From IMG/VR virus record IMGVR_UViG_3300033463_000034: a DNA stretch of 64,000 bases, one strand, 5' to 3'. Positions 7,164 through 57,824 of the stretch are shown in pieces; the stretch's first letter is position 1, and every line of letters starts with the position of its first letter. This DNA is from a virus (taxonomy: Duplodnaviria > Heunggongvirae > Uroviricota > Caudoviricetes). The position numbers and the translations under genes are program-made. The notes below the pieces were generated by a model. The model was given only the letters and a program-made list of their open reading frames with translations. It did not search any database and had not been told where the DNA came from.

Positions 7164-7194
7164 ATATATAATAAATAAAGAAGGAGAGATACAT

Positions 7195-8310: not shown

Positions 8311-8314
8311 TATT

Positions 8315-8782: not shown

Positions 8783-8783
8783 A

Positions 8784-9584
8784 ATGAAACAATATTTTGA
8801 AATTCCTGAAATCTGTCCAATATGTGGCGGCAATACTGAAATTAGAAAAGATAATGATAGTGAGATGTTGTATTGTATAAATCCTCACTGCGAAGGAAAA
8901 TTAATAAATCACCTAGACCATTTTTGTGGTAAAAATGGGTTAGATATAAAGGGGCTCTCAACGGCAACTCTCGAGAAACTTATAGACTGGGGTTGGGTTT
9001 CTAATTATATTGATATATATAAATTAGAAAACTACTCAAACGAATGGAAAAACAAAGCTGGTTTTGGAGAAAAGTCAGTAGAGAGGATCTTGAGCGCCCT
9101 TGAACTAAGTAAAAATACTACATTAAATAAAGTTATTGCGGCCGCAGGTATACCTTTAATAGGTCCTGGAGTAGCAAAAATGTTAAGTGAGATTTATCAT
9201 ACTTGGATAGAGTTTCGTAATGAAAAAGATTTTGAATATATAGATGGAATCGGTCCAGAAATGAATAATTCATTATTAAATTTTAATTATACTGAAATTG
9301 AACAAGTTATTCCTTATTTAAATATAGAAAATGATAAAATAGAAAAGAAAAATAAATTAGAAAATTTAACTTTTTGTATTACTGGTAAAGTACATACAGT
9401 AAAAAATAGAGATGAATTAAAAGCAATAATAGAAAATAATGGTGGAAAAGTTGTTGGTTCAATGTCAAGCAAAGTTAATTATTTAATTAATAATGATAAT
9501 ACTTCAACTAGTGCAAAAAATATTGCCGCAAAACAAGCAGGAATTCCAATTATTACAGAGGAAGAATTGCAATTAATGATTTAA
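8784..9584 (+). CDS. ligA: NAD-dependent DNA ligase, C-terminal half (Zn finger, HhH and BRCT)
   Basis: CPICGG...C..C Zn finger at the N-terminus, HhH region GIPLIGPGVAK, BRCT-like end. Own weak RBS GGGGGGA. Confidence 0.75.
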   Translation: MKQYFEIPEICPICGGNTEIRKDNDSEMLYCINPHCEGKLINHLDHFCGKNGLDIKGLSTATLEKLIDWGWVSNYIDIYKLENYSNEWKNKAGFGEKSVERILSALELSKNTTLNKVIAAAGIPLIGPGVAKMLSEIYHTWIEFRNEKDFEYIDGIGPEMNNSLLNFNYTEIEQVIPYLNIENDKIEKKNKLENLTFCITGKVHTVKNRDELKAIIENNGGKVVGSMSSKVNYLINNDNTSTSAKNIAAKQAGIPIITEEELQLMI

Positions 9585-25757: not shown

Positions 25758-28010
25758 ATGAAAGTCATAAAACGTGACGGTCGTATTGTAGAATTCGATC
25801 CTACTAAAATCCATAACGCAATTTTAGCAGCTTTTCAAAGTGTTGATGGAGAAATTACTGATTATGCAAAAGATAAAGCTGAAAATATAGCAAGTTATAT
25901 TGAAGGATATTATTTAGATGTTGATGAAACACCTGGGATAGAAGATATCCAAGATTTAGTTGAAAAAGGATTAATGGCAACTAAAAGAAAAGATGTAGCT
26001 AAAGCTTATATATTATATAGAGAAGAAAGAAATAAAAAAAGACAATTAAAAACTTCTTTAATGCAAAATGTAAAAGAAAAAATTGAAGCTTCAGATGTAC
26101 AAAATCAAAATGCTAATGTTGATGAATATTCATTTGGTGGAAGAATGGGTGAAGCCCGCAGTGAAGTAATGAAAGATTATGCACTTAATTATATTGTATC
26201 TGATATGGCTAAACAAAATCATTTAAATAATGAAGTATATATCCATGATTTAGATTCATATGCTGTTGGTATGCATAACTGTTTAACCGTACCTTTTGAT
26301 CATTTATTATCACATGGTTTTAATACTAGACAAACAGATGTTCGTCCAGCTCGTTCAATTAATACTGCATTTCAACTAGTAGCAGTTATATTCCAATTAC
26401 AATCACTTCAACAATTTGGTGGAGTTAGTGCAAGTCATTTAGATTGGACTATGGTACCATATGTTCGTATGAGTTTTTATAAACATTTTCAAGATGGTTT
26501 AAAATATATTTCACCAGATCCATATTATAGTGGAGATGATTTTAATAGTGATATGTCTATTGAAGATGAGCAATATAAGAAATATCCAAAAGCATATAAA
26601 TATGCAATGGATATGACTGAAAAAGAATTAAATCAAGCTGTTCAAGGTATGTACCATAACTTAAATACATTACAATCTAGAAGCGGAAATCAATTACCTT
26701 TTACTTCAATTAATTATGGTACTTGTACTTTACCAGAAGGTAGAATGGTTACAAAAGCATTATTAGAAGGTAGTATTGAAGGTGTTGGTAAAGTTAGAAA
26801 AACTCCAATATTCCCATGTAGTATATTCCAATGTATGAATGGTGTTAATCGTAAACATGGAGATCCAAACTATGATTTATTTAAATTAGCACTTAAATCA
26901 ACAGCTCAAAGATTATATCCAAACTATGTTAATGTAGATTGGTCTGTAAATGCGGGTTATGATAAAAACGACCCTAAAACATATGTTTCTACAATGGGAT
27001 GTCGTACATATAATGGAGCAGATATAAATGCTGAACCTGGAACTAATCCACAAACTAAAGATGGCCGCGGAAATATTTGCCCTGTTACAGTTATTATGCC
27101 TACTTTAGCAATGGAAGCTAAAAAATTAGCTGATGAAGAGTATGAAGCTACAGGTCAAGCTGATATTATTGATGCTTTTATGTCTTTGTTAGATAAAAAA
27201 ATTCATGAAGCAAAAGATATGCTTATTGAAAGATATAATTATATTATCAGCCAAAGTCCTAATGGAGCAAAATTTATGTATGAAAATGGTTGTATATTAG
27301 GTTATGATGGTAAAACAGTAGAAAGTGCTATGAAACATGGAACATTAGCTCTTGGTCAAATAGGTCTTGCAGAAACACTTCAAATATTAATTGATAAAGA
27401 TCACACAACACCTGAAGGTATGGAATTAGCAAAAAAAATAGAACAATTATTTAAAGATAGATGTGCTGAATTTAAAAAAGAATATAAATTAAATATTGGT
27501 GTATATTATACTCCAGCTGAAAATTTATGTTATACAGCTATGAAAAAATTTAAAAACAAATATGGAATAATTCCTAATGTAAGTGATAGAGATTACTTCA
27601 CTAATTCAATTCATGTTCCAGTTTGAAAAGAAATGAGTCCTTTTGATAAAATAGATATTGAAAGTCAATTAACTGGATATAGTAATGCAGGATGTATTAC
27701 TTATGTTGAATTAGATGGCGGAGTTAAAAATAATTTAGATGCATTAGAAACAATTGTAAATTATGCTATTGATAAAGATATACCTTATTTTGCAATTAAT
27801 GTTCCAAATGATACCTGTTTAGATTGTGGATATACAGATGAATTTAATGATAATTGTCCAATGTGTGGAGGTACACATATTCAACAATTGCGTAGAGTAA
27901 CAGGATATTTAACTGGAGATTATAAAACTGCTTTCAATAAAGGAAAACAACAAGAAACTGAACAAAGAATAAAACATCAAAAATTTAATGGAGATTGTTC
28001 TCATGATTAG
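25758..28010 (+). CDS. nrdD: anaerobic ribonucleoside-triphosphate reductase (class III); in-frame TGA at 27627
   Basis: RBS GAGGAGG upstream. ATP cone at the N-terminus. C-terminal glycyl-radical motif RRVTGYL with a Cys cluster CLDCG...CPMCG. Confidence 0.8.
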
Positions 28011-28500
28011 AATAGCAGGAATTAATGAAAATGATATGGTGAATGGAGAAGGAGTAAGTGTTAGTTTATTTCTCCAAGGATGTCCATTTCATTGTAAAGG
28101 ATGTCATAATCCAGAAACATGAGATCCTGAAGGCGGCAATGCCTGATTTGAAGAGAATTTAATTAAACATATTAAAGAACTAATTGCCGCAAATGGAATA
28201 CAAAGAAATTTAAGTATTTTAGGTGGCGAACCATTAGACACTCCTGATAAATTAAATTTTCTTGAAAAATTAATATTTTCAGTAAAAAATAAATATCCTA
28301 ATATAATAATTTGTTTATGAACAGGTTATAATTATGAATATTTACAAACAAGATGAGATATGAATTTTATATTAAATAATATAGATTATTTGATAGACGG
28401 TCCTTTTAAAATAAAAGAACGCGATATAACTTTAAAATGACGCGGCAGCCGCAATCAAAGAATAATAGATTTAAAAAAGGGACTAATTATTCAAAATTAG
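28003..28500 (+). CDS. nrdG: anaerobic RNR activating enzyme (radical SAM); 5 in-frame TGA
   Basis: CPFHCKGCHNPETW aligns with E. coli NrdG CPGCYNKSTW. ICLWTGY aligns with DIWVWTGY and LKWRGS with LIWRGS. The TGA codons fall on conserved Trp positions. Confidence 0.8.
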
Positions 28501-28512
28501 TCCTTTTATTTT
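28468..28512 (+). terminator. intrinsic terminator
   Basis: Stem gggactaat/attagtcc followed by ttttatttttt. Confidence 0.6.
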
Positions 28513-28541
28513 TTATATATATCAAAGAGAGTGTGATATCT

Positions 28542-29006
28542 ATGCGTACAGTAGTAAATGAAATGATAAAAGATTATGATTTAAAAAAATGAAATTGTGA
28601 TTTTATGGGCTATACTTTTGATACTATTAAAGATTTAAGTTTTCATCATTTAATCATTCCTAAAAGAGATAGTAAAAAAAATGGTATTGGTGAAGGTTAT
28701 GTATCTTGAAATGGTGCTATTTTAAATAGAGATACTTCACATCCTTATTTACATACAATAGAAAGAATTGATAGAAATTTATTTTTAAAAATTACACAAG
28801 AAATGGTAGAAGAAAATATAAATAAAAAATTGACAAAAGAAAATTTAGAAAATATTAGAGATATGCTATTATGATTTGAAAGTAAGTATGAAGATACTAT
28901 AACTTCACATGAAAAATTAATTGTAAAACCTGAATTTAAAACAAAAAGATTAGTTTTATCTATTGATGAAGAATGAAATTGAAAAAATAAAAAATATAAA
29001 TTATAA
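28542..29006 (+). CDS. putative HNH-family endonuclease (at least 6 in-frame TGA)
   Basis: SFHHLIIPKRDSKKNG....N.AILNRDTSHPYLH resembles an HNH core. Very dense in TGA. Confidence 0.35.
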
Positions 29007-31286: not shown

Positions 31287-32738
31287 ATGGATTTAATTTT
31301 ATTATTTAGTATTATAGGAGGAATACTTTTATTAATTATATTGTTAACATCAAGTTATGTTAAATGCCCTCCTGATATGGTATTTATTATTTCAGGTTTA
31401 AGAAAAAAACCTAGAGTTATTATTGGAAAAGCTACTCTTAGAATTCCATTCTTTGAAAGAGTAGATAAATTAACCTTAGAGTTAATACAAATTGATGTTC
31501 AAGCTCATAATGTTCCAACATCTGATTTTATTAATGTAGATGTTGATGCTGTTGCAAATGTAAGAATTCCAAATAATCCAGATTTAATTCAAGTTGCAGC
31601 AAGACATTTTTTAAATCAAACTTCTAAATATATTGCAGATAATGTACAACAAGTACTTGAAGGAAATATGCGTGAAATTATAGGACAAATGAATTTAGTT
31701 GCTCTTGTAAATGATAAACAATTATTTTCTCAAAAGATACAAGAAAATGCAAGTGATGATATAAAAAATATAGGATTGGAAATTGTTAATTTAAATGTTC
31801 AAAGTTGTACTGATGATAATCAAGCTATTGAAAATTTAGGAATTGATAATTTAGTTAAGATACAAAAGGCAGCTAAAATTGCAAAAGCTCAAGCTGAAAA
31901 AGAAATTAAAGTTGCGGAAGCAGCCGCTGACGAAGAAGGAGCTCGAGCTCGTGCAGAAGCAGATGCTAAAATAGCTGAACAACAAAAAAATTTACAACTT
32001 AAAAAAGCAGAATATAAAATCGAACAAGATAAAAAGAAAGCTGATGCAGATGCCGCATATGAAATACAAAAGGCAGTTCAACAAAAAACAATTAATGAAA
32101 ATAATGTAGAAGCAGAAGTTGCTAAAACTGAAAAGTTAACCGCTTTAAAACAAAAAGAAGTTGCTTTAAAAGAACAAACTTTGGAAGCAGAAATTAAAAA
32201 GCAAGCTGATGCTGAAAGATATGCTGCGGAAATTCAAGCTGAAGTTGATAAAACTCGTGCTATTAAAGCCGCTGAAGCTGAAGCTCAAGCAAGAATAGCT
32301 CGTGCTGAAGCTGAAAAAGAAGCTAATGTAAAAGAGGCAGAAGGTATTCGTGCAAAATTACAAGCTGAAGCTGATGGTAAAAAAGCCATATTACTTGCTG
32401 AAGCAGAAGGTGTTCGTGCCAAAGCATTAGCTGAAGCTGAAGGTATTGAAAAGAAAGCAGAAGCTCAAAAGAAAATGGGTGAAGCATCTATCGTTGAAAT
32501 GATTATGAATGCATTACCACAAGTAGCTAAAGAAGTATCTGCTCCATTAGCAAATGTAGATAATATTACAATGTATGGCGACCAATCAACTAAACTTATT
32601 GAAAATAATACTCAAAAAATAGATCAAGTATTAAAAGTGGCTCAAGATAGTTTAGGACTTGACCTTAAGAGTCTTATAGCAGGGTTTGCCGCAAACAAAA
32701 TATTAGACAATAAAAAACCTGGAGACTTAGACAAATAA
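31287..32738 (+). CDS. SPFH/band-7 flotillin-like protein with long Ala/Glu-rich coiled coil
   Basis: N-terminal TM, SPFH domain, then about 200 aa of AEAEA-type repeats as in FloT/YqiK flotillins. Confidence 0.65.
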   Translation: MDLILLFSIIGGILLLIILLTSSYVKCPPDMVFIISGLRKKPRVIIGKATLRIPFFERVDKLTLELIQIDVQAHNVPTSDFINVDVDAVANVRIPNNPDLIQVAARHFLNQTSKYIADNVQQVLEGNMREIIGQMNLVALVNDKQLFSQKIQENASDDIKNIGLEIVNLNVQSCTDDNQAIENLGIDNLVKIQKAAKIAKAQAEKEIKVAEAAADEEGARARAEADAKIAEQQKNLQLKKAEYKIEQDKKKADADAAYEIQKAVQQKTINENNVEAEVAKTEKLTALKQKEVALKEQTLEAEIKKQADAERYAAEIQAEVDKTRAIKAAEAEAQARIARAEAEKEANVKEAEGIRAKLQAEADGKKAILLAEAEGVRAKALAEAEGIEKKAEAQKKMGEASIVEMIMNALPQVAKEVSAPLANVDNITMYGDQSTKLIENNTQKIDQVLKVAQDSLGLDLKSLIAGFAANKILDNKKPGDLDK

Positions 32739-32753
32739 TCTAAGTCTTTTTTG
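32722..32753 (+). terminator. intrinsic terminator
   Basis: Stem agacttag/ctaagtct followed by a T6 run. Confidence 0.55.
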
Positions 32754-32779
32754 ATGAAATAAAAAATCTTTATTATACT
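32751..32779 (+). promoter_or_regulatory. promoter TTGATG-17-TATACT for the polysaccharide-modification operon
   Basis: Hexamers at 32751-32756 and 32774-32779. Confidence 0.45.
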
Positions 32780-32856
32780 ATAATTAGGGACTGAATAAAA
32801 TAATAAAAATAATCAAATTTTTATAATATAATAGAATATAAAAAGGAGAATATATT

Positions 32857-33810
32857 ATGAATACTTACCCTATTGATATCGTTGTAACTTTTTTAGATAA
32901 TTCGGATAAAAACTGACAAAAAGAATTTTACAAATATAAAAAAGAAGAAATAAAAAACAGAATTACTCAAGCAGAAAATTCTCAAGCATTTGGAAAAGAT
33001 AGATTTCGTGAATGAGATGTGTTCAAATATTGGTTTAGAGGAGTTGAAAAGAATTGTTCATGAGTAAACAAGATATTTTTAATAGTTCAAAGTGAAACAC
33101 AAATTCCTAAATGATTAAATAAAAATCATCCAAAATTAAGAATTGTTTATCATGAAGAATATATTCCTAAAGAATTATTACCTACTTTTAATGATAGACC
33201 TATTGAATTTTATACTTGTTTTATTAAAGATTTATCTAAAAATTATATTAGAAGTAACGATGATTGTTATTTTTTAAATCCAATTCCTGAAGATATGTTT
33301 TTTAAAAATGATAGACCAGTATTACCAGATAATCAAAGACCATTTGAATTTTTTGAGGCTAAAGGTTCAGGTGCAACATTTTGAGGAGCATTAAATAATA
33401 ATTTAGAATTAGAAAAAGAATATTTAAATGGAAAAAATTATACTTATGGTATAGCTCATTTACAAATGGCATGTGATAAAAATTTTGAATTAAAAATAAT
33501 TAATAATCATAAAGAAAAATTTTTATCTGCTTTATCTTATAGTCGTTTTAGAAGTGAAAAACATTATACAATTTATTTATTTGATGATTTAGAAAGAATA
33601 TGTGAAAACGCAATTTTAGATAAAAACATTTTTAATACAAGTTGTTATTGTTATTTAAATAAAAATTTAAATTTTGAAGATATAAAAAATAAATTATGTG
33701 TTTGCTTAAATGATACAGATAAAGCAAATTCAGATTATTCTTTAATTAAAAAAAATATGCAAAAATTTTTTGAAGATAAATTTCCTAATAAATCTTCTTT
33801 TGAAATTTAA
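32857..33810 (+). CDS. Stealth-family hexose-1-phosphoryl transferase (capsule/teichoic-acid phosphotransferase-like); 5 in-frame TGA
   Basis: Stealth CR1-like PIDIVVTFLDNSDKNW(TGA)QKEF and a CR2-like segment. Confidence 0.55.
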
Positions 33811-33823
33811 TAAAGGAGGCTAT

Positions 33824-34483
33824 ATGAAAATATTAGTATTAAGCTGTGATAAAAATGAAGATACTTTTAAAGCATTTCATCATTGTATGGAAAAATATTA
33901 TCCAAATCATCCTGAAGTAATATATGCAACAGAAACATTAAAAAATCCATATTATAAAACAATAAGTAAAAATTATCCTTTAAATTTATGAACTAAAAGA
34001 ATAAGAGAAACTTTAAAAGAAATTGATGATGATAAAATATTATTAATGATAGATGATTGTTTTATTAGAGAACCTGTTGATACAAAAAGAATTCAATATG
34101 CAATAGATAATTTAAAAGGAAATATTGCAATGTTTAATTTTGAAAAATCATTTGATAATACCGATGAAGAAACTAATCTAATAGATTTTAAAAAAAGAAA
34201 ACATGGATCTTCTTATGAAGTTAGTTTGTTATGTGGATTATGACAAAAAGATAAATTAATAAAAGTTATTTCTACTGATAGTGATCCATGATCAATAGAA
34301 TATGGTCAAAAAAATTATAATTTTGATTATTATATTAATAGTGGTGATTATATTATTGATTGAGGATATAAAACTTGGAAACCAGCAGGTATTTTTAAAG
34401 GTTTATGATGTAAAGAAGTGGTGCCATTTTTTGAAAAGGAGGGTATCAAGATTGATTATGACAAACGAGGATTTTCTAATTAG
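33824..34483 (+). CDS. hypothetical protein, possible sugar-transferase accessory (5 in-frame TGA)
   Basis: RBS AAAGGAGG upstream. No firm motif. Confidence 0.35.
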
Positions 34484-35045
34484 TATTATAACTCCTTATT
34501 ATAATACATTAACACAAACAAAAAAATTAGCAAAAATATTAGAACCACAACTTACAGAAGAAATAGAATGAATAATTATAGATGATGGATGTCATGAAAA
34601 AAAATTAGATAATATAAAAGCAAAAGTTATTCATCTCGAAAATAATAGCGGCGGAGGTAGTGTCCCTAGAAATGTCGGTTTAGATAATGCTAAAGGAAAA
34701 TATATATTATTTATAGATAGTGATGATATGATCAAAACTAATTATATAGAAACTATAATAGATAAAATTAATCAAGAAGATTTTGATTATTGTTACTTTG
34801 GTTGAGAATCACATACATTTTCTATTATAATAACAGATGAACCTCCAGAATGAAATTGTTGTATATGAGATTGTATTTATAAAAAAGAATTAATTGGAAA
34901 TGTTAGATTTGATCCAAAATTACGAGTAGGGGAAGACTTAGATTTTAATAAAAAAGTTAGAAAAGGTAAAAAAGCTCATATTCATAAAATTTTATATTAT
35001 TATAATGATACTCCTAACTCCTTAACAAAACGAGGTGACAAATAA
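34458..35045 (+). CDS. family 2 glycosyltransferase (GT-A fold); 4 in-frame TGA
   Basis: ISIITPYYN, IIIDDG and GKYILFIDSDD (DxD motif). Confidence 0.7.
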
Positions 35046-36145
35046 TGCATTTTACTAATATTTATTATTTTTATTATCTTAATGTTATAGGTGGAACAGA
35101 AACTTTTTTATATCAATTAGCAAAAAAATATAAAGATTATGATTTAACTATTATATATCGTTATGCAGATGCTAAACAAGTTGAAAGATTAAAAAAATAT
35201 GTTCGATGTATAAAATTTACAGGGCAACAAATTGAATGCGATAGAGCGTTTTTTAATTATGGTGCAGATATTATAGGAAATGTTCATGCTAAAGATTATT
35301 ATTTAGTTGTTCATGCAGATTATGAAGCAGTTGCAAAAACAAATCCTAATTTTATGGCAAGTTTTTCTCCAAAAATAAATCATTTTATTGGAGTTAGTGA
35401 TTTAGCTTGCAAAGCGTTTACAAAAGTAACTGGAAAATTATGTGAAAAAAGTTATAATCCAATTGAAATAGAAAAACCTAAAAAAGTATTAAATCTTATT
35501 AGTGCAACAAGATTATCAAAAGAAAAGGGTAAACATAGAATGGAACAACTTGCGGCCGCACTTGATAAAGAAGGAATACCTTATATATGAACAATATTTA
35601 CAACAGATACTAATGCTATTGATAATCCTAATATAGTATATATGAAACCTAGATTAGATATTACTAATTTTATTGCTAATGCAGATTATCTTGTACAATT
35701 ATCAGATAATGAAGGATATTGTTATTCGGTTGTAGAAGCATTGGGTATGGGAACTCCAGTAATAGTAACTCATTGTCCTGTATTTGATGAAATAGGTTTA
35801 AAAAATAAAGAAAATTGTTTCTTATTAGATTTTGATATGAAAAATATTCCTATTAAAGAAATTTATGAAAGTGAATTAAAATTTACTTATACGCCTCTTC
35901 CAGATAGTTGAGATAAATTTATTATAAAAAACCCTTCAACATATAAAGAAGAAATTAATACAATATATACGGTTCAAGCATTAAAAACTTATGAAGAAAA
36001 TCATATTGAAGATGGACAATTACATATGATTCCAAATCCTGGATTTAAATGAGATGTTGATTGTGAACGTATGAGAGTATTGACTGGAGATAATGATAGG
36101 CATTTAAAATTCGTAAAAGTAGTTAGTGAAAGAAAAAAAGACTAA
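35045..36145 (+). CDS. GT-B-fold glycosyltransferase (GT4-like); 3 in-frame TGA
   Basis: N-terminal VIGGTETF and C-terminal EGYCYSVVEALGMGTPVIVT. Confidence 0.6.
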
Positions 36146-36195: not shown

Positions 36196-36224
36196 GTAGT
36201 TAAGAAATATAGGAGTTGATTAAT

Positions 36225-36722
36225 ATGATATTATTATCATTAGATTTAAGTACAAAAAGTTCAGGTTGGGCAATATTTAAAGATGGTTTATTAATGGATT
36301 CTGGATGTATTACCTCTTCATCTACAGATTTGTTAAAAAGAATTAATGTAATGATAAATGGATTAAAAACAATAGTAGAACAATATCAACCTAATAGAAT
36401 AATTGCGGAAGAAGTAAGACCTGAAAATGGAATGCAAAATCTTAAAACTCATCGTGCTCTTATGTGATTACAAGGTGGCATTGCTTTAATGATTTATGCT
36501 TATAATAAAAATTTAGAATTAGAATTAATATATCCTAGTTCTTGAAGGGCGGCAATTGGTATTAAAACTGGGCGCGGAATTAAAAGAACTACATTAAAAG
36601 AAAAAGATATACAATTTGTAAAAGAAAATTATAATCTTGATGTTAATGATGATGAAGCTGATGCAATTTGTATAGGATATGCAAATTGTCATGATATAGA
36701 AACTGAAATTAATTGAGAATAA
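36225..36722 (+). CDS. ruvC: RuvC-like Holliday junction resolvase; 4 in-frame TGA
   Basis: RBS AGGAG upstream. LSLDLSTKSSGWAIF start, catalytic-type acidic residues EE and DDEADA, similar to phage RuvC. Confidence 0.65.
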
Positions 36723-36799: not shown

Positions 36800-36838
36800 A
36801 ATAGCACAGATATAAAAATCTGTGCTTTTTTATTTTTA
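36800..36838. terminator. bidirectional terminator between convergent modules
   Basis: Stem agcacagat/atctgtgct flanked by T-runs on both strands. The minus-strand gene stops at 36836. Confidence 0.6.
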
Positions 36839-42132: not shown

Positions 42133-42594
42133 TTATTTTTTAGCTTCATAAGATGTAACTTCTATTGTTTTCTTAGGTAAAGCTCTTATTTCTCTCATTA
42201 AATCTTCTACAAAGCTATTTCCGCCTTCATCTTTATAATGAGAATATCTTTTCTCTATACAATCTAAATTATAATCATCTATAAATCCTAATTTATAACA
42301 AAAATAATGATGTTCTCTTGTTATATAAGCTTTAATATCATCTTTATCAGAAGCAACTAATAAATCAATTGTATCATCAATTTGAGTTATTTTATCTAAT
42401 ATTTTATCTACAGTTTCTTTTAATTCATTAATATCTTGTTTTAAAGTTTCTTCTTCTTTTTTCTTACCCATTTTTTCCATAATTTTTCCTTTTGCTCAAT
42501 CTATTCATGTAATAACCCCTTTTATTGCAACTGCTAATAAGATAATAAATATAATGATTTCTTGTATACTATAAGTTTCTAATAGTTGTTTCAT
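42133..42594 (-). CDS. membrane protein (N-terminal TM plus coiled coil), 153 aa
   Basis: Track ORF 42133-42480 extends in frame through 2 TGA to ATG at 42594, which has a GGAG RBS upstream. Confidence 0.4.
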
Positions 42595-42676
42595 AATTTA
42601 TCATCTCCATTTTTCTAATTTATATTAAAAATAATTAATGTAAATGATTTATTTTAGTCCAAATAAAAAAGATATA

Positions 42677-43783
42677 TTAATTATTATCTTTTTTATTATA
42701 ATAATCTTTAGCACATACTCCACATTCTATATTTTTATTTTTTATTTCTTCAGGAATTTTTGCTTGTATTGAATAAATATCATCTTCATTATATTCTAAT
42801 TCTGATAACATATCCATAAATTGGACTATATTTGGCTGTGCCATAAATATTTGTGCTGAAGTTGACATTTCTCCACATCAAATTTTAAAATTTTCATTAA
42901 AACTATTGATAAATTGTTCAGTATGATAATCTAAATTATATTGTTTTCAAGTATAATAATAAAATTTTTTAATATATTCTAAATTTTGTTCTTGAAACAT
43001 TTCAGAATTTGCACCTACATCACAATAAGTAAAATATAGAAATATAATTGCTCCAATAATTTCTTCTATAATAACTTCTTTTTTTATATTATGATTTCTA
43101 GCTCATTCAAAAGTTTCAATCATCCCATCTACAAATCCACATACACTTTGATCATATGTATATTGTCCATGATTAATTCTTGTAATAGAATTAGAACGAA
43201 CATGTCATAAATAAGTAAATGCATCCATAAAAGGAATTGTTTTATTTTCATTCATATAATAAATTAATATTTTTCTATTAAAACAAGTATCTTCATTAGC
43301 CCTTAAATCTGTAAAAGTAATCTTATTATCTATTAAAAATTGTCTACGATAAATTTTGCCAAAAACTCAGACAGTATCCCCATAATGAGGTATATAATTA
43401 TCATCATGTTCTTCTATAAAACCACTAAATAAGACATTTTCTTTAGATATTTCAATTTGTTTATAAAATTCTTTAAAAGTAAATCCTCCCATATAACTAT
43501 CATCTGCATCTGCAAACATTATATAGGGGCAAGAAGTATGCTCAATTCCATATCTTCTAGCATAACCTGGTCCATGATTTTCAGGAAGACGTCTAACATT
43601 TATATCTAATTTTTCTTTAAATAATTTTGCAATAGATTTATAATCTCCTTCAGGACAATGATCATCTACTATTGTTACTTTTACCAATTCAGAACCATCT
43701 TGCATAGCAATAGAACATAAAGTTTTAAAAATAGATTTATGAGCTTTATAAGCAGGAATAATTACATCAATTTGTTTTTCCAT
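42677..43783 (-). CDS. family 2 glycosyltransferase in the late module; several in-frame TGA
   Basis: VIIPAYKA, VTIVDD and FADADD. Track ORFs 43367 and 42677 are in the same frame. Confidence 0.6.
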
Positions 43784-43837
43784 ATTATCATATTCCTTTC
43801 TTTTAAATATTATACTATATTTTTTTCTTTTTGTCCA

Positions 43838-43880
43838 TAAAAAAAGAACATGCGGCGATCGGTTAGTCGCTCTTCCGCAT
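43838..43880 (-). terminator. intrinsic terminator (minus strand)
   Basis: GC-rich stem aacatgcgg...ccgcatgtt (9 bp plus inner stem), then T7 on the minus strand. Confidence 0.6.
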
Positions 43881-43891
43881 GTTTTAAAAAT

Positions 43892-44322
43892 TATCTTGGT
43901 ATCATTGAAAAATAATAATAAACTTTATCTTCTTTTGCATCTTCATCTTTTATAAAATCTTTACTATATCTTGCATACATTTCAATATTATCTTTAAAAA
44001 TATCATTATAATCATTATAGGCGCTATTCATCACAATTCAAAAATCAACAGGTCTAATATCATCAAAACCATAACTAGTTCTTACACTTTCTGTATCTGG
44101 TAATCCTCATTTCATACCAAATGGTTTCATATTTTCAATTAAATATTTTGCTTTTTCTTCATTTAGAACTCTACCTTCTGCTATTTCATATAATTTTCTT
44201 TCAGTTTCTTCTAAATCTTCATCCATATGTTTTAAAATTTCACACATTCAATGAGATAAATCATTTTTTTTATCTACATTATCTGAAGATAAAATTTTAT
44301 CAATATAATATTTAATTTCCAT
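43892..44322 (-). CDS. hypothetical protein, about 143 aa (several in-frame TGA)
   Basis: RBS GGAAGGGAA upstream. Translation MEIKYYIDKILSS... Confidence 0.4.
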
Positions 44323-44512
44323 TTTTATTCCCTTCCACCTTTCTTAAAATTTCATTTAATATTTTATTTTGATATTCTAATTTATTTTCCATATCAAAAA
44401 TAATAATATCAAGTTTTTTACTTTGAGATTCATTCTCTTCATAAGAATGAAGAGAAATATATGACAATAGTACAGTTAATAAGTCTAAGGCATCTATGTC
44501 TCTATTTATCAT
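44312..44512 (-). CDS. hypothetical protein
   Basis: 66 aa. Overlaps the downstream gene start. Confidence 0.35.
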   Translation of the reverse strand: MINRDIDALDLLTVLLSYISLHSYEENESQSKKLDIIIFDMENKLEYQNKILNEILRKVEGNKNGN

Positions 44513-44513
44513 A

Positions 44514-44870
44514 TTAAATACTTCCTATTGTATCAGATGAAACACTTTTTGGACATATACAATTTTGAATAACAAATTGACCATTTTCATAATTGTCATT
44601 ATCATTACCATATATAATTGTATATCTTATTCTTGTATCTAATTGATTAGCATATACTGTATTTCCAGCTTTACATAAAACAGGAATATCTCCTATATTT
44701 GTTCTAATAAATACTGGCAAATTTGCGGTTGCAGCAGCATTTGAACAGATTACTAATCCATAAGTAGAAGTATTAATTAAATTTTTTATTGCTCTATTTG
44801 GCACTAAAACAACAGTAGTTTGAGTTGTTTCTGCGGTAGAACAATACATTGTATTACAATTACAGCTCAT
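44514..44870 (-). CDS. hypothetical Cys-rich protein
   Basis: RBS GGAGAATTG upstream. MSCNCNTMYCS...NCICPKS. Confidence 0.4.
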   Translation of the reverse strand: MSCNCNTMYCSTAETTQTTVVLVPNRAIKNLINTSTYGLVICSNAAATANLPVFIRTNIGDIPVLCKAGNTVYANQLDTRIRYTIIYGNDNDNYENGQFVIQNCICPKSVSSDTIGSI

Positions 44871-44887
44871 TTCAATTCTCCTTTCCT

Positions 44888-44922
44888 AATAAAAAAAATG
44901 CGGAAGCAATTTGACCCGCTTC
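44888..44922 (-). terminator. intrinsic terminator (minus strand)
   Basis: Perfect 11-bp stem aatgcggaagc/gcttccgcatt, followed by T8 on the minus strand. Confidence 0.6.
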
Positions 44923-44961
44923 CGCATTATCTCAACTTGCAAAGCAAGGAATTATTAACTA

Positions 44962-45537
44962 CTAATAAAGTGAATTACATCCGCAATTAGTATAGCAAGG
45001 TGGATTTAATACATATCTACCTTGTAAATTTAAGATTGAATCTGTTGAGTTTTGAATTGCGGCTGTTAAAGCAGCTGTTTGATTTGCATTAGATAAAGCA
45101 TCTCTTGTAGTTTGAAGTTTATCACTTAATTCTCTAATGTAATTATCTTGAATCATTGATCTTGTAGCAGCATTTTCGCTTACAACTAAATTTCCAATTG
45201 CGGCAATACTATTACCAATTTGTTGAGAAATATCTTTCATAGTTGATAAGCTATTATAGCTTGCATTTAAGACTGTATCAGTAATTCCACATTGACCTTG
45301 AGCTAAACCTCTAATGGCATTATCTTGACTTTGGAAATATAATGAATTTTGTAAGTCACTTTGTCCTAAAGCAGTAGCTCCAGCATTATTTCCCCAGAAT
45401 CCACCATTTCCACCAAATAATAAGATGAATATGATAATTAATGAGAAGATTCCCATAGAACCACCAAATAATCCACCATCATTAGATCTTGTTAATGCTA
45501 ATACATCAGCAGCTGACATTCCAGTTGTGTCGTTCAT
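44962..45537 (-). CDS. membrane protein (one TM, Gly-rich)
   Basis: RBS GGGAGGAAA upstream. TM segment IFSLIIIFILLF followed by GGNGGFWGNN. Confidence 0.45.
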   Translation of the reverse strand: MNDTTGMSAADVLALTRSNDGGLFGGSMGIFSLIIIFILLFGGNGGFWGNNAGATALGQSDLQNSLYFQSQDNAIRGLAQGQCGITDTVLNASYNSLSTMKDISQQIGNSIAAIGNLVVSENAATRSMIQDNYIRELSDKLQTTRDALSNANQTAALTAAIQNSTDSILNLQGRYVLNPPCYTNCGCNSLY

Positions 45538-45596
45538 AAATTTCCTCCCTTTCCATAAAAATAAAATATTATATATAATAAAAAATTAGTAAAATA

Positions 45597-45821
45597 CTAA
45601 CTTTTATTACCATTCATTAAATTAAGCATCCAAGCTAATTGTTCTTTTGAAATTCCTTTTTGATTACATAAATTTGCAATAGCTTCCGCCTTTTGTTGAT
45701 CTGGTTGACCATTTAATTGATTAAAAATTTGTTGTTGTTGTGGATTTAACAGGCTTAACAATGCTTGTTGTGGTTGTTTTGACATCATTACTTGAGATAA
45801 TAGACTCTGAATGTTTATCAT
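45597..45821 (-). CDS. Gln-rich small protein
   Basis: Strong RBS GGAGGAGAAG. Overlaps the 3' end of the upstream gene out of frame. Confidence 0.4.
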   Translation of the reverse strand: MINIQSLLSQVMMSKQPQQALLSLLNPQQQQIFNQLNGQPDQQKAEAIANLCNQKGISKEQLAWMLNLMNGNKS

Positions 45822-46194
45822 TTATCTTCTCCTCCAATTCTAAAATTTTATTTTCTAATTCTTCTATTTTTAAATCTTTTTCATCTTTAGGAATTATAAT
45901 ATCATAAGATTTAGAAATAGTTCCATCTACCTCTTTTAAACATATTTTAGTTCTAGGTTCATCTATAAATAATGTTTTTTTAGTAATAAGAATATTTGAA
46001 ATATCATCATCTTTATTTAAAAACTTGACATCTATATCTGATCCAGTTCCAGATGTAGTAGTATTAATAATATTTTGAACTGGAGCCTGTGGATTCATAA
46101 GACCTTGAGAATATTGAGCTATCATATTTTCAATATTATCTTTATAACGATAAAGTTGATTCATCATTCCCGCATTATTATAATTATATGCCAT
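45721..46194 (-). CDS. hypothetical protein with coiled coil and Thr-rich tail
   Basis: RBS GGGAGAGAAA upstream. ATG (complement 46192-46194) gives MAYNYNNAG... Confidence 0.45.
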   Translation of the reverse strand: MAYNYNNAGMMNQLYRYKDNIENMIAQYSQGLMNPQAPVQNIINTTTSGTGSDIDVKFLNKDDDISNILITKKTLFIDEPRTKICLKEVDGTISKSYDIIIPKDEKDLKIEELENKILELEEKINDKHSESIISSNDVKTTTTSIVKPVKSTTTTNF

Positions 46195-46227
46195 AATTTT
46201 CTCTCCCTTTCTAAAACACAAAAAAAC

Positions 46228-46262
46228 CATGCAATAAGGAAATGAATTTAATCCTTATTGCA
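46228..46262 (-). terminator. intrinsic terminator (minus strand)
   Basis: 14-bp stem ccatgcaataagga/tccttattgcatgg followed by T7 on the minus strand. Confidence 0.6.
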
Positions 46263-56393: not shown

Positions 56394-56409
56394 TTTATTT
56401 CCTCCTTCA

Positions 56410-56450
56410 TATTATTGCGGAAGATCTCGATTTAATATTCTTTAAATCGG
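56410..56450. other. GC-containing imperfect stem-loop between fibre genes
   Basis: gatctcgatttaa / ttaaatcgggatc with one mismatch, flanked by gcggaag and agcgcc. Confidence 0.3.
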
Positions 56451-56471
56451 GATCCAGCGCCTTTATTTACA

Positions 56472-57824
56472 TTAAGCTGAATAAGTTTCCCAAGCTAGGA
56501 TACTTTCAGCGTAAGCTTTTGCTCCATAGATTGTATTTGCAGTAGCAGTGTCTGAAGCAGTTCCTATTGCTGTACTTAATGCAGCAGCAGCACTACCACT
56601 TGCATCATAAGCACTACTTGCAGTATAAGCAGCTGATCCTAAACCATGGACACTAACTTCTGCAGTTGTTCCACCAGTATTAACACTAATTGTACCATTA
56701 TTAGATCCTTCAGCTACGCTTCTAACTGCGTTATCAGCTAAAGTTCCTTGAGCAGCAGTTGCATAATTTGAAGCTAAACTATCTGCATATTTTTTAGCAC
56801 CATAAATAGTATTAGCAGTTGCAGCATCACTACTTGAACCAATAACTTCTGATTTAACTGTTGCAGCAGCTCCGCTAGCATCATAAGCTGATGAAGCAGT
56901 ATAAGCAGCACTACCTAAACCATAAACTGCAACATCTGTACCATCAACTGCAATTGTACCATTAGTAGCACCAGTTGTAATATCTGCAGCTTGTAATGCG
57001 CTATCAGCAGCATTAATTGAGCTTTGTAATGAACTAGATAATTTTGCTTTTGTTACATTAGCATCTAAAATTTTTGCAGTTGTAACAGCATCATCAGCTA
57101 ATTCTGTAGCAGTAACTGATCCAGCTACGATTGAACCACTAATTACATTAGCATTACTAATAGCTAATTGAATTTGACTAGCATTTTGTTCTGCAGTATA
57201 AATATCTACTAAATCTTTAGCAGCAATATATAATACATCACTTGAGCTATTAGCGATTTGTAATTTAATATATTTACCAGCATCTGCAGCAGTAGCAGTT
57301 CCACCTTGACCTTTGATTTTTTCAGTTACATCTGTTTGTCCATCATATAATTTTCCATCTTCAGAGTTATAAGTGATATCTACAACAGATCCACTTTCAA
57401 CTACCATATCTTTTGGAATATCAATATTTACATTTAATCCTGTAGCAGATTGAACTACATTATATCTTTTTGAATATGGATCCCCAGTTTGTCCTGAAGT
57501 TTCAGTAATTGCTACTGTATAATTAGTTTGACTAGGTACATTAACGTATAATCCTTTTTCTCCTGCTCCAGTTTGTAAACTTAAACTATTTCCTGATTTT
57601 TCAGAAATTTGAACTTTAATTTTTTTATTATCTGAAACTACAATTGAATCATCTTTACCTTCAACAGCAGTTAAGAAACTTGATAAATCTTGATCTGTTA
57701 AATGTCTTTCTCCTAGATATAATTCATTAGTATCAGTTAATAAATAAAAATAATCTGCATTAACTGTTCCTGCAGTTTTTAATGCAGCATATTCACTAGC
57801 TAAAATTTTAATAAATTTAATCAT
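56472..57824 (-). CDS. tail fibre protein with tandem repeats (YGLGSAAYTASSAYDASG and TATANTIYGAK[KA]YA, each x2)
   Basis: RBS GAAAGGAAG upstream. N-terminal YFYLLTDTNELYLG motif. Confidence 0.55.
   Translation of the reverse strand: MIKFIKILASEYAALKTAGTVNADYFYLLTDTNELYLGERHLTDQDLSSFLTAVEGKDDSIVVSDNKKIKVQISEKSGNSLSLQTGAGEKGLYVNVPSQTNYTVAITETSGQTGDPYSKRYNVVQSATGLNVNIDIPKDMVVESGSVVDITYNSEDGKLYDGQTDVTEKIKGQGGTATAADAGKYIKLQIANSSSDVLYIAAKDLVDIYTAEQNASQIQLAISNANVISGSIVAGSVTATELADDAVTTAKILDANVTKAKLSSSLQSSINAADSALQAADITTGATNGTIAVDGTDVAVYGLGSAAYTASSAYDASGAAATVKSEVIGSSSDAATANTIYGAKKYADSLASNYATAAQGTLADNAVRSVAEGSNNGTISVNTGGTTAEVSVHGLGSAAYTASSAYDASGSAAAALSTAIGTASDTATANTIYGAKAYAESILAWETYSA

What the first reader, a model, noticed from the sequence alone, without database searches (positions are those of the whole stretch)
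32751..36145. Phage-borne operon of a Stealth phosphotransferase plus three glycosyltransferases with its own promoter
Stealth enzymes add hexose-1-phosphate to capsule or teichoic-acid polymers. Paired with GT2 and GT4 enzymes, this looks like a surface-polysaccharide modification cassette for receptor masking, superinfection exclusion or serotype conversion, sitting inside an otherwise replication-focused early region. An alternative is glycosylation of phage DNA or virion proteins.
Basis: partly seen in the sequence, partly recalled or inferred. Interest (0 to 1): 0.6.

Follow-up and report, generated by a model that had tools for sequence, protein, structure and literature searches.

The report
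Phage virion-glycosylation cassette with Stealth enzyme
A gut or rumen phage that reads TGA as tryptophan carries a tightly packed set of four sugar-transferring enzymes, one a Stealth sugar-phosphate transferase, that most likely decorates the phage's own particle proteins late in infection rather than the host surface; this would extend virion glycosylation well beyond the mycobacteriophages where it is known.

Summary
Four abutting + strand genes lie at 32857-36145: a Stealth hexose-1-phosphate transferase with all four conserved regions and the validated catalytic residues, an unclassified GT-A-fold enzyme, a short GT2 and a GT4.

The cassette is written in the recoded, late-gene dialect of an apparently virulent ~128 kb phage. 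Its enzymes are soluble, and homologous cassettes in many small phages are embedded without gaps in packaging or head operons.

Comparing relatives with and without the cassette gave the key result. Carriage tracks a short C-terminal tail ending in Ser at position -2 on the major capsid protein, in three capsid families with no detectable sequence similarity (14/14 vs 2/11; 32/32 vs 2/32; one carrier versus its relatives). In one lineage it also tracks such a tail on the tail-tube protein (16/17 vs 3/17). That is the capsid-plus-tail-tube C-terminal pattern known from glycosylated mycobacteriophages.

DNA glycosylation is disfavoured because no hydroxylated-base enzymes were seen. The acceptor in this particular phage is unseen: its head genes lie outside the window. 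Phage-borne Stealth enzymes appear to be undescribed.

The parts
32723..32747 (+). Hairpin plus T-run at the stop codon of the upstream SPFH/flotillin-like gene; probable terminator that sets the cassette apart
   Evidence: Sequence; the scan reports the palindrome. Inference.
32751..32779 (+).
   Evidence: 9/12 match. Such matches occur at chance frequency in this DNA, so this is unproven.
32857..33810 (+). g1: Stealth-family hexose-1-phosphate transferase, 317 aa, minimal catalytic core
   Evidence: Pfam CR2 and CR4. GNPTAB 2e-18 and CpsY 4e-15. The family profile aligns full-length to CpsY at 3e-22. CR1 IDIVVTF at 6-12; E117, N134, D136 and R232 correspond to CpsY E305, N322, D324 and R419; CLND at 283-286 (PMC10668966).
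33824..34483 (+). g2: unclassified GT-A-fold glycosyltransferase, 219 aa, highly conserved
34458..35045 (+). g3: short GT2 glycosyltransferase, 195 aa
   Evidence: PF00535, 59 bits. 51-63% identical homologs in small-phage cassettes.
35045..36145 (+). g4: GT4 (GT-B, Glycos_transf_1) glycosyltransferase, 366 aa; candidate initiating enzyme
   Evidence: PF00534 and PF13692 above cut-off. The g4 class is the commonest cassette member and often occurs alone; 64 of 66 cassette loci have g4 or the N-extended GT2.
36216..36722 (+). RuvC-like resolvase, probably co-transcribed with the cassette and also TGA-recoded
   Evidence: PHROG 159/827. 70-nt gap with no terminator before it. 3 TGA and 1 TGG.
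36803..36826 (.). Strong bidirectional terminator where the + and - arms converge; the cumulative GC skew peaks here
   Evidence: 9-bp stem with T-runs on both strands; skew profile.
42677..43783 (-). Fifth glycosyltransferase (GT2, 368 aa) in the structural arm; homolog of the N-extended GT2 found in small-phage cassettes
   Evidence: PF00535, 70 bits. 26-37% identity to the L010 and L024/25/30 GT2s. 5 TGA and 0 TGG.
31287..32738 (+). SPFH/flotillin-like membrane protein directly upstream; conserved neighbour in relatives, role unknown
   Evidence: Band_7 and Flot domains in L001 and L003. N-terminal TM segment. Stays next to g2-g4 in L003/L015 although the Stealth gene has moved.
56472..57824 (-). 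Speculative acceptor candidate: 450-aa fibre-like structural protein ending ...ETYSA, resembling the ETVSA/EEVSA capsid tails
   Evidence: One of only 3 of 63 window proteins ending S[ALVGSYI] (1.8 expected); all three lie in the structural arm. Weak evidence.

Best explanation
The cassette is a late-expressed, cytoplasmic protein-glycosylation pathway that decorates the phage's own virion proteins.

Proposed steps (inferred):
1. The GT4 enzyme g4, and/or the N-extended GT2 at 42677-43783, attaches the first sugar to a Ser near the exposed C-terminus of abundant structural subunits (capsid and tail-tube type proteins).
2. The short GT2 (g3) and the GT-A enzyme (g2) extend the glycan.
3. The Stealth enzyme (g1) transfers a hexose-1-phosphate from a UDP-sugar onto a sugar hydroxyl of that glycan. 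This gives a phosphodiester-linked, negatively charged cap, the same chemistry GNPTAB performs on glycoprotein glycans.

Shown here: the enzyme families, the catalytic residues, the recoded late-type codon usage, the operon structure, and the cross-lineage correlation between cassette carriage and C-terminal Ser tails.

Inferred: the acceptor, the order of action, the sugars, and the transfer of the small-phage result to this large phage.
For: (1) Timing. The cassette has 17 TGA and 2 TGG codons, like the baseplate and fibre genes. Topoisomerase, ligase, DnaB and Pol III alpha use TGG. In TGA-recoded Agate-type phages, recoded genes are the structural and lysis genes and cannot be translated before the code switch (bioRxiv 10.1101/2021.08.26.457843).

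(2) The four enzymes have no TM segment and pI 5.6-7.5. No flippase, priming transferase or integrase is seen.

(3) Homologs at 37-63% identity form modular cassettes in many ~30 kb standard-code phages, embedded in late operons: before terS/TerL (L006, L009, L011, L012), or between minor capsid and scaffold/MCP with 3-12 nt gaps (L022, L010).

(4) Acceptor signature.
- Lineage S: the putative MCP has an extra 5-6 aa tail (EEVSA, SEVSA, ETVSA, ETISG, SEAVSS...) in 14/14 cassette-positive phages against 2/11 cassette-negative (p = 2.7e-5). L051 ends ...RLVEEVSA and its 80%-identical cassette-free relative L063 ends ...RLV.
- L010-type capsid lineage (Pfam capsid): 32/32 against 2/32 (p = 6e-16). 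At 90%-identity clusters the counts are 24/0/2/15 (p = 2e-9), with carriers and non-carriers interleaved.
- L022-type: the carrier ends ...TATASL; 76-81%-identical relatives without the cassette end ...TTAVE/Q/A.

(5) This matches the reported glycosylation of the C-termini of capsid and tail-tube subunits in mycobacteriophages (Freeman et al. 2023, as summarised in PMC12619734).

(6) Stealth and g2 never occur without another GT (7/7 and 5/5 loci), and 64 of 66 cassettes contain g4 or the N-extended GT2. This fits initiator and elaborator roles. A natural g2-GT2-GT1 fusion in the same order as g2-g3-g4 exists.

(7) Unassigned ORFs beside the cassettes are mostly sugar-pathway enzymes: NTP transferases (10), GT32-like (5), UDP-galactopyranose mutase (2).
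Against: - The capsid and tail-tube genes of this phage lie outside the window and could not be retrieved, so no acceptor tail is shown for this genome. Only a weak hint exists: three structural-arm proteins end in S-x.
- The correlation comes from small siphophages whose enzymes are only 37-63% identical to those here.
- The lineage-S 'MCP' is assigned by gene order only; it has no Pfam, PDB or profile-profile match.
- There are exceptions (L070, L074, L149, L177). 'Cassette-negative' means no BLAST match to my reference set within the fetched locus.
- In the L010 and L022 types the cassette is physically close to the MCP gene, so linkage could inflate the association. In lineage S it is about 5 kb away.
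- In lineage S the cassette shares a hypervariable island with ParB_N and Mom-like DNA-modification genes.
- TagD-like and TagF-like partners in L029 and L037 are classic wall-polymer enzymes.
- Here the cassette sits beside RuvC and a flotillin-like membrane protein, not among head genes.
- No experiment has been done.
Confidence: 0.55

Rival explanations
1. Host cell-envelope glycopolymer modification. The soluble enzymes act on lipid-linked wall teichoic acid or another secondary wall polymer at the inner face of the membrane, as prophage TarP does. This would change receptors for superinfection exclusion, reduce progeny loss on debris, or tune lysis.
Against: No lysogeny genes appear in the window, and the phage is large and replication-autonomous. 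The cassette is TGA-recoded like late genes, so a standard-code host could not express it from a prophage or early in infection. Wall polymer made minutes before lysis cannot replace the existing wall. Small-phage homologs are translationally coupled inside packaging or head operons and are not autonomous morons. This idea does not explain the cassette-specific Ser tails on capsid and tail-tube proteins.
Confidence: 0.15
2. Phage DNA hypermodification. The enzymes build a glycan or sugar-phosphate on a hydroxylated base as an anti-restriction measure, as in T4, the 5mYOX-associated GTs, or the sugar-phosphate-bearing base of Bacillus phage SP-15.
For: DNA glycosylation also happens late, before packaging (PMC13326640). 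In lineage S the cassette occupies the same hypervariable pre-terminase island as ParB_N and Mom-like DNA-modification genes, sometimes alongside them. The SP-15 genome paper proposes a TagF-like enzyme plus GTs for its phosphoglucuronolactone-bearing base (PMC5977210). The window encodes dUTPase, a dNMP kinase and NrdDG, and the cassette abuts RuvC.
Against: Every described route needs a ThyA homolog or a 5mYOX dioxygenase, usually clustered with the GTs. None is in the 64 kb window, in L001, L003, L006, L009 or L010, or among 42 enzyme-sized neighbours; only one TAGT turned up among 46 further flanking ORFs. About 21 kb of the ~30 kb L006 genome is visible and has no candidate of suitable size. 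In L022 a TAGT-type DNA GT sits about 4 kb from the Stealth trio, with TerL, portal and minor capsid between them, so it is not clustered with it. g1-g4 have near-neutral pI. UDP-galactopyranose mutase partners point to glycoconjugate-type glycans. This idea does not explain the capsid and tail-tube tails.
Confidence: 0.12
3. Another late intracellular target. Examples: glycosylation of a host or phage non-structural protein or small molecule as counter-defence, or synthesis of a free teichoic-acid-like polymer that modulates lysin activity and lysis timing.
For: The cassette lies in an accessory, hypervariable island in lineage S. g4 has a weak, sub-threshold match to 'GT4 in conflict systems'. 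Recoded phages concentrate recoding in lysis-related genes. The fifth GT lies among small TM proteins.
Against: There is no positive evidence for any such target. It does not predict the specific co-variation with the C-termini of the two most abundant virion proteins.
Confidence: 0.08

Closest known systems
Mycobacteriophage virion glycosylation (Freeman et al. 2023, Cell Host Microbe; known to me through citing papers PMC12619734 and PMC13313380, the original is not held)
   Same: Phage-encoded glycosyltransferases. Glycans are reported on the C-termini of capsid and tail-tube subunits. Here, cassette carriage co-varies with C-terminal Ser tails on exactly those two proteins.
   Different: The hosts are low-GC gut or rumen bacteria rather than actinobacteria. 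The enzyme set includes a Stealth hexose-1-phosphate transferase, an unclassified GT-A family and, in relatives, TagD/TagF-like and Galf-pathway enzymes. Nothing has been shown biochemically. In this large phage the acceptor is unseen.
Stealth family: GlcNAc-1-phosphotransferase GNPTAB, M. tuberculosis CpsY, Neisseria capsule polymerases
   Same: All four conserved regions are present, as are the mutationally validated residues (E, N-D-D, CR3 Arg, CLND). There is a full-length profile match to CpsY and a match to the GNPTAB catalytic core. In the proposed role g1 would act on a protein-linked glycan, as GNPTAB does.
   Different: At 317 aa it is a bare catalytic core with no spacer or regulatory domains. 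It is phage-encoded: there is no homolog in 50,697 GenBank phages, no PHROG family, and no literature hit. Donor and acceptor are unknown.
Prophage serotype-conversion and wall-polymer glycosyltransferases (S. aureus TarP; Gtr systems of Shigella and Salmonella phages)
   Same: Phage-borne GT2-type enzymes. PHROG hits for g3 include 'GtrB-like O-antigen conversion' families. TarP is a structural neighbour of g2.
   Different: Those genes are expressed from prophages as autonomous units and, for Gtr, include membrane flippase or transferase partners. Here there are no membrane components or lysogeny genes, the coding is late-type recoded, and homologs are embedded in structural operons.
Phage DNA glycosylation systems (T4 alpha/beta-GT; 5mYOX- or ThyA-associated GT clusters; the SP-15 cluster)
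   Same: Late-acting, soluble, phage-encoded GT-A and GT-B enzymes. They neighbour DNA-metabolism genes, and in lineage S ParB and Mom-like genes.
   Different: No hydroxylated-base-generating enzyme was found in any visible locus. No TAGT or beta-GT-like match for g1-g4. Carriage co-varies with structural-protein tails.
TGA-recoded 'Agate'-type gut phages (Borges et al., bioRxiv 10.1101/2021.08.26.457843)
   Same: Low GC, TGA = Trp, replication genes in standard code, structural genes recoded, two arms with a GC-skew switch, and related loci from IMG/VR, ENA and JGI metagenome contigs and from rumen and faecal MAGs.
   Different: Clade membership was not tested phylogenetically. No suppressor tRNA lies in this window.

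Membership tests
Stealth protein family (hexose-1-phosphate transferases) | CR1 motif IDVVYTF or very similar at the N-terminus | tested here: met
   g1 residues 6-12 are IDIVVTF. They align with PIDVVYTW of GNPTAB and the CpsY N-terminus. The Pfam CR1 model itself gave no hit at E<=1. Motif definition from PMC10668966.
Stealth protein family (hexose-1-phosphate transferases) | CR2, about 100 residues, the most conserved region, including the N-D-D metal/substrate motif | tested here: met
   PF11380, 107.2 bits against a cut-off of 39.4. g1 N134-D135-D136 align with CpsY N322-D323-D324, and E117 with E305.
Stealth protein family (hexose-1-phosphate transferases) | CR3 with the essential arginine (CpsY R419) | tested here: met
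   The invariant S229-x-F231-R232 of the g1 family aligns with CpsY SPFR, chain residue 219 = R419. The Pfam CR3 model gave no hit, so this rests on the profile alignment.
Stealth protein family (hexose-1-phosphate transferases) | CR4 with the near-universal CLND/CIND tetrapeptide | tested here: met
   CLND at 283-286. PF17103, 31.8 bits against 27.4. C283, N285 and D286 are invariant in 32 homologs.
Stealth protein family (hexose-1-phosphate transferases) | Transfers sugar-1-phosphate from a UDP-sugar to a hydroxyl, releasing UMP | not testable with these tools
   Needs an enzyme assay.
GT2 (GT-A, inverting) glycosyltransferases: g3 and the gene at 42677-43783 | Pfam Glycos_transf_2 above the gathering score, with a DXD motif | tested here: met
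   g3 scores 59.3 bits and has DSDD; the 42677-43783 gene scores 69.9 bits and has DADD.
GT4 / Glycos_transf_1 (GT-B): g4 | Pfam Glycos_transf_1 / Glyco_trans_1_4 above the gathering score | tested here: met
   34.8 bits (cut-off 26.4) and 30.1 bits (cut-off 27). No structure was predicted for g4.
GT-A-fold glycosyltransferase: g2 | Rossmann-like GT-A fold with a DXD motif | tested here: met
Phage virion-glycosylation systems (mycobacteriophage type) | Phage-encoded GTs expressed with late or structural genes | tested here: met
   Late-type TGA recoding. Homologs are embedded in packaging and head operons. Expression timing itself was not measured.
Phage virion-glycosylation systems (mycobacteriophage type) | Acceptor sites at the C-termini of capsid and tail-tube subunits | tested here: inconclusive
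   Met by correlation in small-phage relatives. Not testable for this phage, whose capsid and tube genes lie outside the window.
Phage virion-glycosylation systems (mycobacteriophage type) | Glycans physically present on virion proteins | not testable with these tools
   Needs mass spectrometry or glycan staining.
Lysogenic-conversion glycosylation cassettes (Gtr / TarP type) | Carried by a temperate phage and expressed from the prophage as an autonomous unit | tested here: not met
   No integrase or repressor in the 64 kb window. The recoded codons block translation in a standard-code cell. In temperate small phages the cassette is coupled to late genes with no room for a promoter.
Lysogenic-conversion glycosylation cassettes (Gtr / TarP type) | Membrane components (flippase or integral GT) for Gtr-type systems | tested here: not met
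   No TM segment in g1-g4.
Phage DNA-glycosylation pathways | A hydroxylated-base source (ThyA homolog or 5mYOX/TET-JBP, with or without a C5-methyltransferase) in the genome, usually clustered with the GTs | tested here: not met
   Absent from the window and from all annotated loci. Caveat: about half of this genome is unseen.
TGA-recoded (code 4) phages infecting standard-code hosts | In-frame TGA = Trp concentrated in structural and late genes, with replication genes in standard code | tested here: met
   A CHAP lysin argues for a walled, non-mycoplasma host. No suppressor tRNA in the window.

The most novel reading that the evidence does not exclude
Many uncultured phages of gut and rumen bacteria build phosphodiester-containing (Stealth-made, and in relatives glycerol-phosphate or teichoic-acid-like) O-glycans on a short C-terminal '...x-Ser-x-COOH' tag. 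The tag has evolved convergently on capsid proteins from families with no detectable similarity and on a tail-tube protein. That would be the first protein phosphoglycosylation by a Stealth enzyme outside eukaryotic GNPTAB, a predictable acceptor motif for engineering glycosylated phage particles, and a modular, rapidly swapping 'virion serotype' locus. The window's five GTs would be its most complete version.
Probability: 0.35. Interest if true: 0.85.

Novelty: new variant of a known kind. Interest (0 to 1): 0.66.

Why it matters
Virion glycosylation has so far been treated as an actinobacteriophage peculiarity. If correct, this finding has several consequences:

- It is widespread in uncultured gut and rumen phages: hundreds to more than a thousand protein clusters for g1 and g2.
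- It uses enzyme families absent from reference phage databases, namely Stealth and an unclassified GT-A.
- It comes with a simple, testable acceptor rule: Ser at position -2 of the capsid and tail-tube proteins.

This bears on phage immunogenicity and clearance in phage therapy, on phage persistence and mucus interactions in the gut, and on how 'auxiliary' glycosyltransferases are annotated in viromes. They are routinely called host-surface or DNA modifiers.

It also shows that the codon dialect of recoded phages can be used to assign accessory genes to the late class. And it gives a prokaryotic-virus counterpart of GNPTAB chemistry that can be reconstituted with two to five small soluble proteins.

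Tried and rejected
- **Table-11 reading of the interval.** Gives only fragments; rejected in favour of code 4. Code 25 (TGA = Gly) is rejected by the Trp alignments.
- **Megablast of 24 kb against GenBank phages.** No match. tblastn of g1: none; g2: one weak unannotated hit.
- **Single-protein IMG/VR scan with g1.** Nothing; the alignment-based scan worked.
- **'Own promoter'.** The sigma-70 scan is at chance level, so this is not claimed.
- **DNA-modification hypothesis.** I looked for ThyA, TET/JBP, C5-methyltransferase and TAGT in the window, in Pfam tables of six loci and in two batch scans. Only isolated TAGT, D12-methyltransferase and Mom hits appeared, never consistently with the cassette.
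- **Reaching this phage's head genes.** Exact look-ups at the window ends returned only short contigs. The last window protein has no IMG/VR relatives.
- **Identity of the lineage-S 'MCP'.** A single sequence and a profile against PDB, and a profile-profile comparison with the Pfam-supported L010-type capsid, all gave nothing. The assignment stays positional.
- **Archaeal host.** The 'Methanobrevibacter sp.' label on one homolog was treated as possible mis-binning; other labels are Clostridia, Bacilli and Anaeroplasmataceae MAGs. Not pursued.
- **Literature.** Searches for phage Stealth enzymes and for capsid-tail glycosylation outside actinobacteriophages found nothing specific. The Freeman 2023 and Pyle 2024 journal versions are not held.
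Full report
**1. What is at the coordinates**

Under the standard bacterial code the interval 32751-36145 holds only short ORFs. Every break is a TGA. Reading TGA as sense raises coverage of the window by ORFs of at least 100 aa from 60% to 92%. It yields four abutting + strand genes, each with a GGAGG-like site upstream:

- g1 32857-33810 (317 aa)
- g2 33824-34483 (219 aa)
- g3 34458-35045 (195 aa)
- g4 35045-36145 (366 aa)

TGA encodes Trp. Thirteen of the 17 in-frame TGAs align with Trp in all three standard-code homologs compared, and most of the rest align with Trp in two of them or with aromatic residues. ARAGORN finds no tRNA in the window.

**2. Enzyme identities**

*g1.* It passes Pfam's gathering scores for Stealth CR2 (107 bits) and CR4 (31.8 bits). 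It matches the GNPTAB catalytic core (2e-18) and M. tuberculosis CpsY (4e-15). A profile of 32 homologs aligns over its full length with CpsY(201-520) at E = 3e-22. Using the family definition and mutagenesis data of PMC10668966, g1 has:

- CR1 IDIVVTF at 6-12
- E117, N134 and D136, corresponding to CpsY E305, N322 and D324
- R232, corresponding to the essential R419 of CR3
- CLND at 283-286

It is therefore a minimal but complete Stealth catalytic core.

*g3 and g4.* g3 is a short GT2 (59 bits) and g4 is a GT4/Glycos_transf_1 enzyme (34.8 bits).

**3. The genome around it**

The window is part of a large phage. The + arm encodes topoisomerase II subunits, NAD ligase, DnaB, primase, helicases, Pol III alpha, NrdD/NrdG, a dNMP kinase, peptide deformylase, dUTPase and an SPFH/flotillin-like membrane protein. 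Then come the cassette and RuvC. The - arm encodes baseplate and fibre-like proteins, a fifth GT2 (42677-43783) and a CHAP lysin. The arms converge at a strong bidirectional terminator (36803-36826), where the cumulative GC skew peaks. The identical g1 lies on a 127.7 kb contig.

TGA use is bimodal. Replication genes use TGG (Pol III alpha has 1 TGA and 17 TGG). Baseplate and fibre genes, RuvC and the cassette (17 TGA, 2 TGG) use TGA. This is the pattern described for TGA-recoded 'Agate'-type phages of animal guts, where recoded genes are the late structural and lysis genes and cannot be translated before the code switch (bioRxiv 10.1101/2021.08.26.457843). By that logic, which is inference, the cassette is a late function.

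The claimed promoter cannot be supported, because sigma-70-like matches are at chance level. A hairpin plus T-run at 32723-32747 does separate the cassette from the flotillin gene, and RuvC probably belongs to the same transcription unit.

**4. Relatives**

g1 has 318 detectable homologs, all of about 310-320 aa. In 60%-identical large recoded relatives (L003, L015) all four genes are present, but the Stealth gene sits 4.5 kb away beside NrdDG. So the set is conserved while the operon arrangement is not.

At 37-63% identity the same enzyme classes form modular cassettes in many ~30 kb standard-code phages: g4-g3-g1, g4-g2-g3, g4-g2, GT2-g4-g1, g4-g1-g3, GT2-g3-g1 and GT2-g3-g2. They are packed into late operons. 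Some sit directly before terS/TerL. In L022 and L010 they sit between minor capsid and scaffold/MCP, with gaps of 3-12 nt.

Related recoded phages add a TagD-like cytidylyltransferase, GT8 and a run of GT92-like genes (L029), or TagD-like plus the g2-TagF-like fusion next to a T4 gp13-like neck gene (L037). Organism labels on related MAG contigs are Clostridia, Bacilli and Anaeroplasmataceae from rumen and faeces.

No GenBank phage has a g1 homolog, PHROGs has no family for g1 or g2, and literature searches found no phage Stealth report.

**5. Discriminating between acceptors**

*Host envelope.* The enzymes are soluble. No lysogeny genes or membrane partners are seen. Late expression leaves no time to remodel an existing wall. 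Embedded cassettes are not autonomous morons.

*DNA.* All described pathways start from a ThyA-homolog or 5mYOX product, usually clustered with the GTs. SP-15, whose base carries a sugar phosphate and whose genome has a TagF-like gene and GTs, also encodes an hmdU synthase. No such enzyme is in the window, in six Pfam-annotated loci, or among 42 enzyme-sized neighbours. Still, in one small-phage lineage the cassette shares a hypervariable island with ParB_N and Mom-like genes, and half of this genome is unseen. The rival is weakened, not excluded.

**6. The comparative test**

Using the portal of the pre-terS lineage ('S'), I fetched 80 related IMG/VR loci. The slot between a conserved ~137-aa gene and terS is empty (11 loci), holds GT cassettes (16), holds ParB_N/Mom-type genes (12), or holds both (5).

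*Lineage S capsid.* Anchored on a conserved FGA motif, the putative major capsid protein ends 15-17 residues later in cassette-negative phages (...KLA...RLV). In all 14 cassette-positive phages it ends 20-21 residues later, with a tail carrying Ser at position -2 (EEVSA, SEVSA, ETVSA, ETISG, SEAVSS, SEKLSA). Only 2 of 11 negatives have such a tail (Fisher p = 2.7e-5). Five earlier loci agree. The negatives form about two separate clades plus one within-clade contrast: L051 ...RLVEEVSA against L063 ...RLV, with cores 80% identical. There are two within-clade exceptions.

*Replication in two other capsid families* (the L010 and L022 MCPs show no significant BLAST similarity to each other or to lineage S; profile comparison of S with L010-type gives 1.8% probability).
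- In the L010 type (Pfam Phage_capsid_4), 32/32 carriers extend beyond ...KVVVAKF by 6-8 residues ending ...VSL, ISL, PSL, ASL, PSV or RSY. This compares with 2/32 non-carriers (p = 6e-16).
- At 90%-identity clusters the counts are 24/0/2/15 (p = 2e-9).
- The classes interleave. For example, KFTA phages are 82-83% identical to a KFKGTPVVSL carrier. A non-carrier 89% identical to a carrier has a tail without Ser...DPGL.
- In the L022 type the carrier ends ...TATASL, and 76-81%-identical relatives with TerL-portal-minor capsid-scaffold-MCP and no GTs end ...TTAVE/Q/A.

Capsid plus tail-tube C-termini is exactly what is reported for glycosylated mycobacteriophages (Freeman et al. 2023, as summarised in PMC12619734).

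**7. Mechanistic reading**

Across 66 cassette loci, 64 contain g4 or the N-extended GT2, and either can occur alone. Stealth (7/7) and g2 (5/5) never occur without another GT. Unassigned flanking ORFs are mostly NTP transferases, GT32-like GTs and UDP-galactopyranose mutase.

I infer that g4 and/or the N-extended GT2 (whose homolog here is 42677-43783) initiate on the Ser tail, that g3 and g2 extend the glycan, and that Stealth caps it with a phosphodiester-linked hexose, as GNPTAB does on glycoprotein glycans. The window phage encodes all five classes.

**8. Limits**

- This phage's capsid and tail-tube genes lie outside the window and could not be reached. Only a weak hint exists: three of 63 window proteins, all in the structural arm, end in Ser-x, including a 450-aa fibre-like protein ending ETYSA.
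- The lineage-S MCP is assigned by gene order only.
- 'Cassette-negative' means no BLAST match to my reference set within the fetched locus.
- Linkage may inflate the association where the cassette abuts the MCP gene.
- Nothing has been tested biochemically.

**9. Verdict**

| Item | Verdict |
|---|---|
| Observation | confirmed |
| Novelty | new variant of a known kind |

The known kind is phage virion glycosylation. What is new is the host range, the enzyme repertoire (Stealth and an unclassified GT-A) and a predicted acceptor rule.

Noticed in passing
window 1-64000 (per-gene table): TGA=Trp recoding is bimodal by gene. Replication genes keep TGG (Pol III alpha 1 TGA/17 TGG; topoisomerase, ligase and DnaB 0 TGA). 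Baseplate and fibre genes, the GT cassette, RuvC, NrdG (27988-28500, 5 TGA) and 28437-29006 use TGA. The CHAP lysin-like gene 59419-60840 has 11 TGG and 0 TGA, and two fibre-like genes (54984-57824) have 0 TGA. No tRNA in the window.
   Followed up: partly
window 36803-36826 and the GC-skew profile: A strong bidirectional terminator lies exactly where the + and - arms converge and the cumulative GC skew peaks. This is consistent with a replication terminus or origin boundary, as described for bidirectionally replicating recoded phages.
   Followed up: no
window 31287-32738 (+): A 483-aa SPFH/flotillin-like protein with an N-terminal TM segment and a long Ala/Glu/Lys-rich coiled region. It is the conserved upstream neighbour of g2-g4 in relatives even where the Stealth gene has moved (L003, L015). 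Its function in a phage is unknown.
   Followed up: partly
window 7135-9584 (+): The NAD-dependent DNA ligase appears split. The adenylation/OB part is at 7135-8310 and the Zn-finger/HhH/BRCT part at 8757-9584, with a 165-aa Cys-rich ORF (8285-8782) between them. This may be a homing-endonuclease or intein-type interruption.
   Followed up: no
window 42133-46230 (-): The fifth GT2 (42677-43783) is flanked by small proteins with TM segments or Cys-rich, Gly/Asn-rich sequences (42133-42594, 44514-44870, 44962-45537, 45721-46230). Homologs of two of them occur in small phages (for example the first ORF of L010). This may be a lysis or membrane module.
   Followed up: no
L041-L120 (small-phage lineage S), slot between the ~137-aa gene and terS: A hypervariable accessory island that alternately holds nothing, GT cassettes of varying composition, ParB_N-domain genes (158-498 aa) each followed by a ~225-260 aa gene (Mom-like in some), or both. 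The ParB_N-plus-partner pairs resemble the ParB-dependent DNA-modification pairs of PMC13229309, but the partners were not identified.
   Followed up: partly
L029 2529-9995 and L037 178-2432: Recoded phages carrying a TagD-like cytidylyltransferase with Stealth, GT8 and seven GT92/GT2_4-like genes (L029), or TagD-like with a g2-domain-TagF-like glycerophosphotransferase fusion beside a T4 gp13-like neck gene (L037). This is phage-encoded teichoic-acid-type chemistry.
   Followed up: partly
L022 730-1710: A TET-associated (DNA-type) glycosyltransferase (TAGT, 32 bits) sits upstream of the terminase in a phage that also has the GT2-GT2-Stealth trio in its head module. One genome may carry two separate glycosylation systems.
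   Followed up: no
lineage S MCPs of 383-386 aa (e.g. L082, L108, L078): A capsid variant with a C-terminal Ig-like/He_PIG-type domain (...GLPAGLTLNPTTGAITGTPT...) occurs almost only in cassette-negative phages. It may be an alternative surface decoration to glycosylation.
   Followed up: no
L061, L071, L104 MCP genes: Three lineage-S capsid ORFs end prematurely at ...PGLTCVA / ...PGLKCVA instead of continuing through the FGA motif. No continuation was found in the other frames of the region checked. Assembly error, frameshifting or a real variant was not resolved.
   Followed up: partly
P0016 / L006-L008: One g1 homolog is deposited as 'MAG: Methanobrevibacter sp.' (MBO7712768.1), although its contig has typical bacterial temperate-phage genes (integrase with Arm-DNA-bind_4, ERF, DnaB_2). 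This is probably mis-binning, but an archaeal host was not excluded.
   Followed up: no
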